A stretch of DNA of 29,852 bases from Nitrosopumilaceae archaeon (lineage in GTDB: Archaea > Thermoproteota > Nitrososphaeria > Nitrososphaerales > Nitrosopumilaceae). This document shows positions 2,926 to 4,075 of this stretch, piece by piece (position 1 is the first letter of the stretch; every line of letters starts with the position of its first letter). The notes beneath the pieces were generated by a model. That model was not told where the DNA came from and did no database searches. It worked only from the letters and a program-made list of their open reading frames with translations. Location: contig DASSAF010000286.1 of assembly GCA_035685565.1 (NCBI GenBank), positions 1 to 29,852 on the forward strand. Reading direction: 5' to 3'. Made by a program: the position numbers and the translations under genes.

Positions 2926-2943
2926 CAAAAATTAATTAAAAAA
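2926..2943 (-). terminator. U-rich archaeal terminator candidate for the 2951..3622 gene
   Basis: Minus strand reads ttttttaattaatttttg just after the stop codon, in a 40-bp convergent gap. Confidence 0.45.
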
Positions 2944-2950
2944 TTGGGGT

Positions 2951-3622
2951 TTATGCATTTCTATTCAACTTTCCATCTTTGTTGAATAAATTCTGGATTT
3001 TTGTATTTGCAAGATTGTATTTGACGTTCAAGTTCTTGTTGATACTTACCAGTTGGTCTTTGTGGACTGCAGCTGCATTATTGTATGCCTGCAAAGCTTC
3101 TTGCATAGTACCACCATTTTTAAGCACTTGATTCATTGCGTTTCTTGCATTCTGGATCTTTTGTTGCATGAAATTAAATTGATCCCAGAAAAGATTCTGT
3201 GTAGAGTTGTTCACATGTGTTACAAAGCTGGCATATGCATTTTTTGGAGCAGTCAGATCATTTCCATTATTCATACTGGCAAGATCATTTTGTAAATATG
3301 CATTTGCAATTTTACGTTGTTGCTCTATGAACTGGTTTTGCTGATCTACTATCTGTTGTTTTTGTTGCATTGCAGCGTATCTTTGCTTGAATAATTCTAT
3401 GTTTTCAAGAATTTTCATTTCTGTGGGATTGTTCTTTATTGCATCTGTAGCTAATATTGTATTGGTTTTACTAGCTCCAGTATCAGCCCAAGCAAAACCA
3501 AAATTTGTTACAACTATTAGCACTGCAAAAATACTTGCAAAAACACATAGTTGACTTCTCTTATTCATTTTCTTACCTTTGTCGTTAGTTTGCATTTCTC
3601 TATTTTCTATGGTTCCAATCAT
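2951..3622 (-). CDS. Secreted Q/N-rich helical protein of unknown function (thaumarchaeal-type hypothetical)
   Basis: 223-aa ORF; hydrophobic signal region LCVFASIFAVLIVVTNFGFAWA; coiled-coil-like QQKQQ..EQQRKIA. ATG at 3622 has GAGGTGA 7 nt upstream; ATG at 3568 is an alternative start. Confidence 0.85.
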   Translation of the reverse strand: MIGTIENREMQTNDKGKKMNKRSQLCVFASIFAVLIVVTNFGFAWADTGASKTNTILATDAIKNNPTEMKILENIELFKQRYAAMQQKQQIVDQQNQFIEQQRKIANAYLQNDLASMNNGNDLTAPKNAYASFVTHVNNSTQNLFWDQFNFMQQKIQNARNAMNQVLKNGGTMQEALQAYNNAAAVHKDQLVSINKNLNVKYNLANTKIQNLFNKDGKLNRNA

Positions 3623-3629
3623 TTTATTT

Positions 3630-3636
3630 TCACCTC
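3630..3636 (-). promoter_or_regulatory. Shine-Dalgarno GAGGTGA for the 2951..3622 gene
   Basis: Plus strand tcacctc at 3630-3636; archaeal SD consensus with a 7-nt spacer to ATG 3622. Confidence 0.7.
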
Positions 3637-3645
3637 ACTGGTTTC

Positions 3646-3698
3646 TCCCGACAACAAACAACGTTGTTTCGTCCGAGTTTCACGGACTCATCAGGGGA
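3646..3698 (-). ncRNA. Hammerhead ribozyme, type I topology (stem I open)
   Basis: Minus strand UCCC-CUGAUGA-GUCCG-ugaaacu-CGGAC-GAA-ACAAC-guuguuu-GUUGU-C-GGGA: complete core CUGAUGA/GAAA/GUC, 4-bp stem I, 5-bp stem II, 5-bp stem III; predicted cut between 3650 and 3649. Confidence 0.9.
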
Positions 3699-3718
3699 TT
3701 TTTTGTATTCTCCTGTTA

Positions 3719-3949
3719 TCATAAGGACCGCAACACTACTTCCAGCACACTTATCAAACCCCTCTTAACATCATCTCGAAGGATTGTACGGATGATTTTT
3801 TGATATTTATTACCACATATTCCAGAATGTGAGAGTAGATGTCTGTTACAAAAGGCACATCCACAAGTTACACATAGTTTTGTACAGTTCTGTGAACATG
3901 TGTCGCATTGCGATTTCTCAATGCGTTCAATTGTTGGTATTGATGTCAT
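3719..3949 (-). CDS. Small Cys/His-rich zinc-finger protein, 76 aa (B-box/AN1/HIT-like spacing)
   Basis: MTSIPTIERIEKSQCDTCSQNCTKLCVTCGCAFCNRHLLSHSGICGNK..: CxxC-x7-CxxC-x4-CxxH-x3-H-x3-C. Start moved from 4051 to ATG 3949 because a TATA-like tttataat lies about 20 nt upstream. Confidence 0.7.
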   Translation of the reverse strand: MTSIPTIERIEKSQCDTCSQNCTKLCVTCGCAFCNRHLLSHSGICGNKYQKIIRTILRDDVKRGLISVLEVVLRSL

Positions 3950-3968: not shown

Positions 3969-3976
3969 ATTATAAA
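3969..3976 (-). promoter_or_regulatory. TATA box candidate (TTTATAAT) for a leaderless zinc-finger transcript
   Basis: Plus attataaa at 3969-3976, 20 nt upstream of ATG 3949; spacing is compatible with an archaeal leaderless mRNA. Confidence 0.5.
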
Positions 3977-3989
3977 TCCATTAGAACAC

Positions 3990-4075
3990 TTTTTGCAACA
4001 AAAAATCCAGAAATTGTACTTTTGTGAGTAAAATGTAGTGCGTAAAAACACCAGTTCAACATTTTTGCAACAAAA
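3990..4075. promoter_or_regulatory. Two palindromic operator-like boxes TTTTG-CAA-CAAAA (3991-4003, 4063-4075)
   Basis: Identical 14-mer tttttgcaacaaaa at 3990-4003 and 4062-4075, 72 bp apart, in the divergent gap beside an Lrp-family gene. Confidence 0.6.

What the first reader, a model, noticed from the sequence alone, without database searches (positions are those of the whole stretch)
3646..3698. Intact hammerhead ribozyme in an archaeal chromosome
Seen: all conserved core nucleotides (CUGAUGA, GAAA, GUC triplet at 3652-3650) with Watson-Crick stems I (UCCC/GGGA), II (GUCCG/CGGAC, 7-nt loop) and III (ACAAC/GUUGU, 7-nt loop), intergenic and sense to both neighbours. Established: this is the hammerhead consensus; to my recollection archaeal examples are scarce (one reported from Cenarchaeum symbiosum). 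Stem I is only 4 bp and I see no clear loop II-stem I tertiary partner, so the rate may be modest.
Basis: partly seen in the sequence, partly recalled or inferred. Interest (0 to 1): 0.9.

Follow-up and report, generated by a model that had tools for sequence, protein, structure and literature searches.

The report
Conserved hammerhead ribozyme inside an archaeal operon
A genuine self-cutting RNA motif (a type I hammerhead ribozyme) lies between two co-transcribed genes of a soil ammonia-oxidising archaeon and is kept intact at that spot in every related genome and metagenome contig examined; it is a solid new example of a known ribozyme class, not a new kind of RNA.

Summary
It is not chance. 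It is the only Watson-Crick descriptor hit in the 1.52-Mb genome, against 0 hits in 40 simulated genomes. Rfam RF00163 gives 22.6 bits (per-genome E 0.003), below the gathering score of 34, so standard annotation misses it.

Forty-eight distinct orthologues from two genera of Nitrosopumilaceae and from soil metagenomes keep every core base. They vary only at N7, H17 (C or A), two loop II positions and a hypervariable loop III, and show two compensatory stem II changes. Family-wide, 12 of 15 pairs covary.

The context is fixed: conserved TATA, a leaderless 76-aa Cys-rich ORF, the hammerhead, a strong Shine-Dalgarno, a 223-aa membrane protein ORF, and oligo-T.

Most likely the ribozyme cuts the bicistronic mRNA after C3650. 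This would release a 5'-OH, Shine-Dalgarno-led mRNA for the second gene.

Cleavage was not tested.

One family member is letter for letter the Cenarchaeum symbiosum hammerhead construct of Perreault et al. 2011. This scan had already noted the same ribozyme in Nitrosotalea on other DNA.

Verdict: new member of a known kind, moderate interest.

The parts
3969..3976 (-). TATA box (TTTATAAT) of the operon promoter. It ends 19 nt before the ORF1 ATG, so the ORF1 mRNA is probably leaderless.
   Evidence: Sequence. The block GATTTATAATTTTT lies at the same distance from the ATG in all 13 orthologous loci where ORF1 was located. The transcription start itself is inferred.
3719..3949 (-). ORF1, a 76-aa Cys/His-rich (zinc-finger-like) protein (P0001). 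The mechanical ORF list gives a 110-aa GTG version; the conserved start is ATG 3949.
   Evidence: Translation. Orthologues of 74-76 aa start at the same MT(S/T)IPTIE. There is no Pfam hit. The nearest Atlas clusters are small Nitrososphaerota hypothetical proteins, score 0.90. The Cys motif lies upstream of the ribozyme in 53 of 55 contexts.
3646..3698 (-). Type I hammerhead ribozyme. Stem I 3698-3695/3649-3646. Core CUGAUGA 3694-3688. Stem II 3687-3683/3675-3671 with loop 3682-3676. GAA 3670-3668. Stem III 3667-3663/3655-3651 with loop 3662-3656. C17 = 3650.
   Evidence: motif and chance. (conservation and covariation).
3649..3650 (-). Predicted scissile bond, 3' of C3650 and 5' of G3649.
   Evidence: Position of H17 in the hammerhead consensus. 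In orthologues this base is C (37) or A (10) and never G. Cleavage was not measured.
3699..3700 (-). Unpaired AA directly 5' of stem I. It is conserved and is a candidate tertiary-contact or stem I extension element.
   Evidence: A in 47/48 and 48/48 distinct orthologues, although these two bases were outside the search pattern. Bases further upstream vary. The role is inferred.
3630..3636 (-). Shine-Dalgarno sequence GAGGUGA for ORF2, 7 nt before the ATG.
   Evidence: Sequence. An SD-like motif lies within 45 nt of the cleavage site in 57 of 57 contexts. The leader after cleavage is 20-30 nt, and 27 nt here.
2951..3622 (-). ORF2, a 223-aa protein with an N-terminal hydrophobic anchor or signal and a Q/N-rich helical remainder (P0002). 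It belongs to a multi-copy Nitrosopumilaceae family with no Pfam model.
   Evidence: Metatranscriptome contigs from soil cover 2958-3610.
2927..2943 (-). Two T runs (T6 2943-2938, T5 2931-2927) after the ORF2 stop. This is a likely archaeal oligo-T terminator.
   Evidence: Sequence. No T5 run lies between the ORF1 stop and the ORF2 ATG in any of the 13 orthologues in which ORF1 could be located. Terminator function is inferred.

Best explanation
The element is a functional type I hammerhead ribozyme inside a two-gene operon of a soil or groundwater member of the Nitrosopumilaceae.

Transcription starts at the conserved TATA promoter upstream of ORF1. It runs through ORF1 (a 76-aa zinc-finger-like protein), the ribozyme and ORF2 (a 223-aa membrane or secreted protein) to the oligo-T runs.

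Once stems I to III have been transcribed, the RNA folds into the three-way junction and cuts itself after C3650 by internal transesterification.

The 5' product is the ORF1 mRNA. It carries almost the whole ribozyme (two stable hairpins) and a 2',3'-cyclic phosphate at its 3' end. The 3' product starts with 5'-OH GGGAGAAACC. It has a 27-nt unstructured leader with a strong Shine-Dalgarno sequence, followed by ORF2.

Stem I is only 4 bp, so the products should separate at once and the cut should be effectively irreversible.

The consequence is that the two cistrons get separate fates (stability, translation). The cell can then make different amounts of a cytoplasmic zinc-finger protein and an envelope protein from one promoter.

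Shown: the motif, its selection, its covariation and the fixed operon architecture.

Inferred: co-transcription, cleavage in vivo, and the effect on expression.
For: Motif and chance.

Orthologues occur in 9 of 10 sampled genomes of the same genus and 5 of 9 of a second genus, and in 55 metagenome contigs.

The metagenome search pattern specified only the 5' 36 nt. All 53 contigs with enough sequence nevertheless carry the unspecified 3' half: a variable loop III, xUUGU, H17 and GGGA.

Across 48 distinct sequences:
- Every core base is invariant.
- N7 is C, U or A.
- H17 is C or A, never G.
- Stem II pairs switch C-G to U-A in matched numbers (2/2 and 5/5).
- Loop III varies in length and sequence.

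Identity between the two genera is 91% in the ribozyme without loop III, against 30% in the 20 nt 5' of it and 21% in loop III.

Family-wide covariation: 12 of 15 pairs have double changes, 89% of cells are paired against 32-45% for slid partners, and 0 of 500 shuffles reach this.

Operon architecture:
- The promoter is conserved at a fixed distance.
- The gap from the ORF1 stop to the ribozyme is only 3-25 nt.
- No T5 run lies before ORF2.
- An SD is present in 57/57 contexts and the ORF1 motif in 53/55.
- All 15 sampled genomes with the ribozyme carry the ORF2 orthologue; the five genomes of these two genera without the ribozyme have only paralogues.

The element is single-copy, absent from IMG/VR viral contigs, and no other hammerhead type is in the genome.
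Against: No cleavage data exist for this RNA.

RNA evidence is thin. Two soil metatranscriptome runs have contigs over ORF2 only. They do not reach the ribozyme, so neither transcription through it nor an end at 3649 is shown.

The Rfam score is below the curated threshold.

Stem I is short and no loop II/stem I tertiary contact can be drawn. A minimal hammerhead may therefore be slow at cellular Mg2+.

Nearest-neighbour folding prefers, by 1.6-2.5 kcal/mol, an alternative that pairs part of the core with the 3' side of stem III. The isolated element's fold is not exceptional against shuffles (z = -1.7).

An internal promoter in the 3' end of ORF1 cannot be excluded from sequence in this AT-rich genome.
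Confidence: 0.65

Rival explanations
1. Promoter-proximal ribozyme. ORF2 has its own promoter inside the 3' end of ORF1. Transcription starts at or just before stem I, and the hammerhead removes itself from the 5' end. The ORF2 mRNA then begins with a 5'-OH instead of a triphosphate. The 3' product is the same as in the main model, but there is no bicistronic precursor.
For: In the related hammerheads of genome G049, a TATTTAAT box lies 21-28 nt before the first ribozyme base, so there the ribozyme probably starts the transcript. A/T-rich hexamers occur about 17-26 nt upstream of the ribozyme in several orthologues (sequences). Soil metatranscriptome contigs cover ORF2 but not ORF1.
Against: The candidate A/T boxes are not conserved in sequence or distance. 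The ORF1 stop-to-ribozyme gap varies from 3 to 25 nt. The upstream ORF1 promoter, by contrast, is letter-conserved at a fixed distance. In a 36% GC genome such boxes are expected by chance. ORF2 has a strong SD, as internal cistrons of archaeal operons usually do (established knowledge).
Confidence: 0.15
2. Conditional ribozyme. Cleavage is modulated by ribosomes terminating on ORF1, which would cover stem I because the stop codon is 3-25 nt away, or by the ORF1 zinc-finger protein binding the RNA. The ORF1:ORF2 ratio would then be regulated rather than fixed.
For: The ORF1 stop lies very close to stem I in all orthologues. The 4-bp stem I and the unpaired AA are strictly conserved. A competing fold of similar energy exists.
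Against: There is no direct evidence. The protein-RNA co-fold gave no usable signal and the tool states that it says nothing either way. The distance from stop to ribozyme is not conserved.
Confidence: 0.08
3. A conserved structured RNA that has the hammerhead shape but no longer cleaves. For example, two hairpins that stabilise the 3' end of the ORF1 message, or that bind a protein.
For: The Rfam score is sub-threshold. Stem I is short. Inactive hammerhead-like RNAs are known (Figure S7 of PMC3088659, listed).
Against: Selection acts on the unpaired catalytic bases themselves. C3, U4, G5, A6, G8, A9, G12, A13 and A14 are invariant in 48 distinct sequences, and H17 is never G. The loops, which a hairpin-binding protein would read, are free to vary. 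A decayed copy does exist in a relative and looks different, with G12 changed to U and stem II eroded.
Confidence: 0.06
4. Remnant or cargo of a mobile element or provirus, as with most bacterial hammerheads.
For: Many prokaryotic hammerheads lie near integrases or prophage genes (PMC3088659). The other hammerhead type in relatives G025 and G049 is multi-copy and sits among small unknown ORFs.
Against: The window's type is single-copy per genome. It always lies in the same syntenic operon, between a divergent winged-helix regulator gene and a convergent fibronectin-III gene. It has no match in IMG/VR viral contigs.
Confidence: 0.02
5. A chance match to the hammerhead consensus.
For: The element is short and below the Rfam gathering score.
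Against: There were 0 Watson-Crick descriptor hits in 40 simulated genomes. The per-genome E-value is 0.003. The element is conserved with covariation across two genera and 55 metagenome contigs.
Confidence: 0.005

Closest known systems
Type I hammerhead ribozymes (Rfam RF00163 Hammerhead_1, clan CL00010)
   Same: Topology: stem I open, stems II and III capped. The core is complete, including the GUCC/GGAC start of stem II that the Rfam consensus also shows.
   Different: It scores 22.6 bits against a gathering score of 34. Stem I is 4 bp rather than about 6, both loops are longer than in the model, and no recognisable stem I bulge partners loop II.
Cenarchaeum symbiosum type I hammerhead (Perreault et al. 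2011, PLoS Comput Biol, PMC3088659; construct JP_270-t1-Cenarchaeum in Table S1)
   Same: Same archaeal family (Nitrosopumilaceae), same type I topology and same stem II. It is picked up by the model built from the window's relatives. The published construct matches G037 exactly.
   Different: It has a different stem I (GCCAUA/UGUGGC, 6 bp), a long stem III and a different genomic context. It belongs with the second sequence type seen in G025 and G049, not with the window's orthologues.
Hammerheads between genes of polycistronic RNAs in bacteria and prophages (for example the Agrobacterium tumefaciens ardA cluster; PMC3088659)
   Same: Gene-ribozyme-gene layout on one transcript. The proposed role is to cut the polycistronic RNA.
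   Different: Those are mostly type II, often in tandem, and associated with prophages. This one is a single type I copy in a conserved chromosomal operon of an archaeon.
HHphage of haloarchaeal viruses HF1/HF2 (PMC3088659)
   Same: A hammerhead a few nucleotides upstream of a start codon in an archaeal system. There the mapped 5' end of the transcript lies within 3 nt of the cleavage site, which supports the idea that the ribozyme defines the mRNA 5' end.
   Different: That one is viral, not chromosomal. It is a core variant adapted to high salt, and lies 13 nt from the start codon, against 27 nt with an SD here.
RAGATH-1 hammerhead (Rfam RF03152)
   Same: It shares the hammerhead core and an A-rich spacer with an AGGAG-like word upstream.
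   Different: It scores 24.4 bits against a gathering score of 56.3. The extra upstream hairpin is not formed, and the AGGAGA word is not conserved in orthologues. Not a member.
   Same: Same ribozyme type and the same reading (an intergenic hammerhead between two small co-transcribed genes). Its stretch shares words with the window.
   Different: Another genome and genus. The present work adds a second genus, 48 distinct sequences, the unbiased 3'-half test and the promoter, SD and ORF architecture.

Membership tests
Hammerhead ribozyme (type I) | Conserved core C3 U4 G5 A6 N7 G8 A9 ... G12 A13 A14 | tested here: met
   CUGAUGA at 3694-3688 and GAA at 3670-3668. All are invariant in 48 distinct orthologues except N7.
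Hammerhead ribozyme (type I) | Three helices around the core, with G10.1-C11.1 and A15.1-U16.1 as closing pairs | tested here: met
   Stems of 4, 5 and 5 bp. The closing pairs are invariant in 25 distinct family sequences, and 12 of 15 pairs covary. Two compensatory stem II changes occur among orthologues.
Hammerhead ribozyme (type I) | Cleavage-site nucleotide H17 (not G) after U16.1 | tested here: met
   C3650. Orthologues have C (37) or A (10) and never G.
Hammerhead ribozyme (type I) | Type I topology: 5' and 3' ends in stem I, loops on stems II and III | tested here: met
   (full-length match to the RF00163 model, positions 1-45).
Hammerhead ribozyme (type I) | Score at or above Rfam's gathering threshold for RF00163 (34 bits) | tested here: not met
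   22.6 bits. A relative's copy (G025) reaches 35.4 bits. The shortfall comes from the short stem I and the long loops, not from core defects.
Hammerhead ribozyme (type I) | Tertiary contact between loop II and stem I that gives fast cleavage at physiological Mg2+ | tested here: inconclusive
   No complementary or known bulge/loop pair could be drawn. However, loop II (U G A R A Y Y) and the unpaired AA 5' of stem I are conserved.
Hammerhead ribozyme (type I) | Mg2+-dependent self-cleavage giving a 2',3'-cyclic phosphate and a 5'-OH | not testable with these tools
   No biochemical assay is available. The RNA-seq contigs do not reach the site.
RAGATH-1 hammerhead (RF03152) | Additional conserved 5' hairpin and a score at or above 56.3 bits | tested here: not met
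   24.4 bits. The hairpin positions are marked as non-pairs in the alignment.
Hammerhead types II and III (RF02276, RF00008) | Permuted topology with stem II or stem III open | tested here: not met
   No RF02276 hit in the genome. RF00008 gives only 21.2 bits on the same site, against a gathering score of 48.5.

The most novel reading that the evidence does not exclude
Hammerheads of the Nitrosopumilaceae may be a dedicated way of making translation-ready mRNA 5' ends that carry a 5'-OH.

In the window's type the cut would leave a 20-30-nt Shine-Dalgarno leader. In the second type (relatives G025, G049 and Cenarchaeum) the start codon sits inside the 3' strand of stem I, so the cut would leave a 1-2-nt leader. 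That would be a ribozyme-made leaderless mRNA, and in some cases it would come from a transcript that starts with the ribozyme.

That would be a natural counterpart of the synthetic 'ribozyme insulator'. It would also be a prokaryotic parallel to the ribozyme-dependent translation initiation reported for RNA viruses (PMC13725137).
Probability: 0.3. Interest if true: 0.7.

Novelty: new member of a known kind. Interest (0 to 1): 0.45.

Why it matters
Most prokaryotic hammerheads sit in phage-like, fast-changing DNA, where their purpose is hard to study. This one is a single chromosomal copy held in one conserved two-gene operon across two genera of ammonia-oxidising archaea. If the second genus is Nitrosotalea, as an earlier scan note and genome sizes suggest, cultured carriers exist.

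That makes the question 'what does a genomic hammerhead do for its host?' testable, by comparing the RNA ends and the expression of the two cistrons.

It also shows that the curated Rfam threshold misses a real, strongly selected hammerhead lineage. Archaeal counts of this ribozyme are therefore underestimates.

Tried and rejected
1. The Rfam scan of the window at gathering thresholds found nothing. Only the E-value scan shows the hit.

2. The RAGATH-1 hammerhead idea is rejected. The score is low, there is no extra hairpin, and the upstream AGGAGA word is not conserved.

3. Public RNA runs. Only assembled contigs were available.
   - Two soil metatranscriptomes cover ORF2 (2958-3610) but stop short of the ribozyme.
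   - One run labelled 'probably DNA' has contigs that break at 3643 and 3713, just outside the ribozyme. That could equally be strain variation in the loops, so it is inconclusive.

4. Exact-protein look-ups of ORF2 and two orthologues, in the hope of transcript contigs ending at the cut site, returned nothing or multi-gene contigs, evidently DNA.

5. A co-fold of the ORF1 protein, zinc and the ribozyme RNA gave no signal. The tool states the result is not evidence either way.

6. Pfam and the ESM Atlas gave no function for ORF1 or ORF2.

7. More distant ORF2 homologues in other genera have their own promoters and no ORF1 or ribozyme upstream. They give no ribozyme-free version of the same operon to compare with.

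8. Thermodynamic folding alone does not single out the hammerhead fold. This is usual for this ribozyme.

9. Literature searches for hammerhead with Thaumarchaeota, Nitrosopumilus, Nitrosotalea, ammonia-oxidising archaea or leaderless mRNA found no description of these elements.

Full report
**Observation.** On the minus strand the window reads UCCC-CUGAUGA-GUCCG-(UGAAACU)-CGGAC-GAA-ACAAC-(GUUGUUU)-GUUGU-C-GGGA from 3698 to 3646. This is the full hammerhead consensus in type I topology. The element lies in the 96-nt gap between two minus-strand ORFs.

**Chance.**
- Rfam at gathering thresholds reports nothing in the window.
- With E-value thresholds, RF00163 (Hammerhead_1) matches end to end at 22.6 bits against a gathering score of 34. 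RF03152 (RAGATH-1) matches at 24.4 bits against 56.3.
- Over the whole 1.52-Mb assembly this is the best RF00163 hit, with a per-genome E of 0.0034.
- A descriptor of my own (core, three stems of at least 4 bp, A15.1-U16.1, H17) finds it as the only Watson-Crick match in the genome.
- Forty Markov-simulated genomes gave no Watson-Crick match, and 0.1 matches per genome with G-U pairs allowed.
- No type II hammerhead is found. The type III model only re-finds the same site weakly.

**Relatives.**
- RF00163 hits the same kind of sequence in 7 of 10 sampled genomes of the same genus and in a few other genera. One copy in G025 scores above Rfam's threshold.
- A covariance model built from these hits finds the element in 9 of 10 genomes of the window's genus, 5 of 9 of a second genus (g10), 2 of 3 of g16 (4-5 copies each) and 1 of 5 of g2.
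- In a class-wide sample of 151 genomes from 12 families, hits lie only in those four genera of the window's family.
- The g2 hit is letter for letter the genomic part of the 'JP_270-t1-Cenarchaeum' oligonucleotide in Table S1 of Perreault et al. 2011. The family is therefore the Nitrosopumilaceae, and the lineage includes the archaeal hammerhead already in the literature.
- That paper states that at least three hammerheads occur in archaea.
- Record titles of the nearest loci are Nitrosopumilaceae/Thaumarchaeota MAGs from soil and groundwater.

**Structure support.**
- On 25 distinct family sequences, 12 of 15 modelled pairs show changes on both sides and 89% of cells are paired. Sliding the partners gives 32-45%, and 0 of 500 shuffles reach the observed values.
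- The G10.1-C11.1 and A15.1-U16.1 pairs never vary, as the hammerhead requires.
- Among the window's own orthologues (15 from genomes), identity between the two genera is 91% in the ribozyme without loop III. It is 30% in the 5' flank and 21% in loop III. Two stem II pairs change C-G to U-A.

**Unbiased test with metagenomes.**
- A metagenome scan with a pattern covering only the 5' 36 nt gave 55 contigs.
- All 53 contigs with enough sequence carry the unspecified 3' half: a loop III of variable length, xUUGU, then C or A, then GGGA.
- Pooled, there are 48 distinct sequences:
  - All catalytic bases are invariant.
  - N7 is C, U or A.
  - H17 is C (37) or A (10).
  - The stem II switches occur in matched numbers (2/2 and 5/5).
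  - Loop III is hypervariable.
  - The two unpaired A residues 5' of stem I were outside the pattern, yet are conserved in 47/48 and 48/48.
- This is the pattern expected of an active ribozyme. It is not the pattern of a generic hairpin pair or a protein-binding site.

**Context.** The architecture is the same everywhere:
- a divergent winged-helix regulator gene;
- a letter-conserved GATTTATAATTTTT promoter ending 19 nt before the ATG of a 74-76-aa Cys/His-rich ORF, which is therefore probably leaderless;
- a 3-25-nt gap;
- the hammerhead;
- a strong Shine-Dalgarno sequence (57 of 57 contexts);
- an ATG 20-30 nt after the cut site;
- a gene for a membrane-anchored protein of about 210-230 aa;
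- T runs, facing a convergent fibronectin-III gene.

No T5 run separates the two ORFs. All 15 sampled genomes with the ribozyme carry the ORF2 orthologue (at least 52% identity). The five genomes of these two genera that lack the ribozyme have only paralogues. More distant homologues of ORF2 have their own promoters and no ribozyme. The element is single-copy and has no match in IMG/VR viral contigs.

**Mechanism.** The best-supported reading is co-transcription of both ORFs and self-cleavage after C3650.
- Because the topology is type I, nearly the whole ribozyme stays on the 3' end of the ORF1 message, with two hairpins and a cyclic phosphate.
- The ORF2 message starts with a 5'-OH and a short open leader carrying its SD.
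- The invariant 4-bp stem I should let the products part at once.
- The likely effect is to uncouple the stability and translation of the two cistrons. These steps are inferred.

RNA data are weak. Soil metatranscriptome contigs cover ORF2 (2958-3610) but not ORF1 or the ribozyme.

An internal promoter that would make the ribozyme the first element of an ORF2-only transcript cannot be excluded, but no such promoter is conserved. Nearest-neighbour folding slightly prefers an alternative pairing. This is common for hammerheads, whose core contacts are not in the energy model.

**Comparison and novelty.** It meets every sequence-testable defining feature of a type I hammerhead except the curated Rfam score. 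The tertiary contact is unresolved and catalysis is untested. Archaeal hammerheads (including Cenarchaeum), gene-ribozyme-gene layouts and a hammerhead just upstream of a start codon in haloviruses were all described in 2011. No paper in the searchable library describes this lineage. It is therefore a new member of a known kind, well supported and of moderate interest.

**Seen in passing.** The other hammerhead type in this family (G025, G049, Cenarchaeum) has an ATG 1-2 nt after the cut site, inside stem I, in 10 of 11 copies. Each ATG opens a different ORF of 39-227 codons. Cleavage there would create leaderless mRNAs with a 5'-OH. I found no description of that.

Noticed in passing
L018:1501-1549 and 1127-1175; L020:531-579; L019:1501-1552 and 835-886; L031:1501-1552; L021:1501-1553 and 818-868; L041:1501-1546 (relatives G025, G049, G037): A second hammerhead sequence type has stem I GCCAU(N)/(N)AUGGC. 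In 10 of 11 copies an ATG lies 1-2 nt after the cleavage site, within stem I, and opens an ORF of 39-227 codons with unrelated products. Cleavage would give a leaderless mRNA with a 5'-OH. In G049 a TATTTAAT box lies 21-28 nt before the first ribozyme base, so the transcript may start with the ribozyme. No description was found in the searched papers.
   Followed up: partly
L020:116-164 (G025:C31:116-164): A decayed copy of the second type has G12 changed to U and an eroded stem II. It shows what a hammerhead released from selection looks like in this family.
   Followed up: partly
L009:1501-1553 (G087, a different family of the same order): A further type I hammerhead (24.2 bits with RF00163) lies 12 nt upstream of the ATG of a 480-aa secreted protein gene. 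The 'ribozyme just before a start codon' layout therefore recurs outside the Nitrosopumilaceae.
   Followed up: no
window 2951-3622 (-) and paralogues G000:C190:7967-8464, G000:C37:3082-3576: ORF2 belongs to a multi-copy family of membrane-anchored, Q/N-rich helical proteins. The family is found in 107 of 151 Nitrosopumilaceae genomes, often in 2-6 copies and sometimes as a domain of much larger proteins. It has no Pfam model.
   Followed up: partly
window 3977-3999 (-): The block GTTGCAAAAAGTGTTCTAAT directly upstream of the TATA box is almost letter-conserved across both genera.
   Followed up: no
window 3643-3713: In one soil run (labelled RNA-Seq but probably DNA), the assembled contigs stop at 3643 and resume at 3713, leaving out just the ribozyme. 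This could be strain variation in the loops breaking the assembly, or an RNA end. It is undecided.
   Followed up: partly
G000:C284:5872-5927 (+): This is the only other descriptor hit in the genome. It depends on G-U pairs and lacks the G10.1-C11.1 pair, and it is in line with the 0.1 per genome expected by chance.
   Followed up: no
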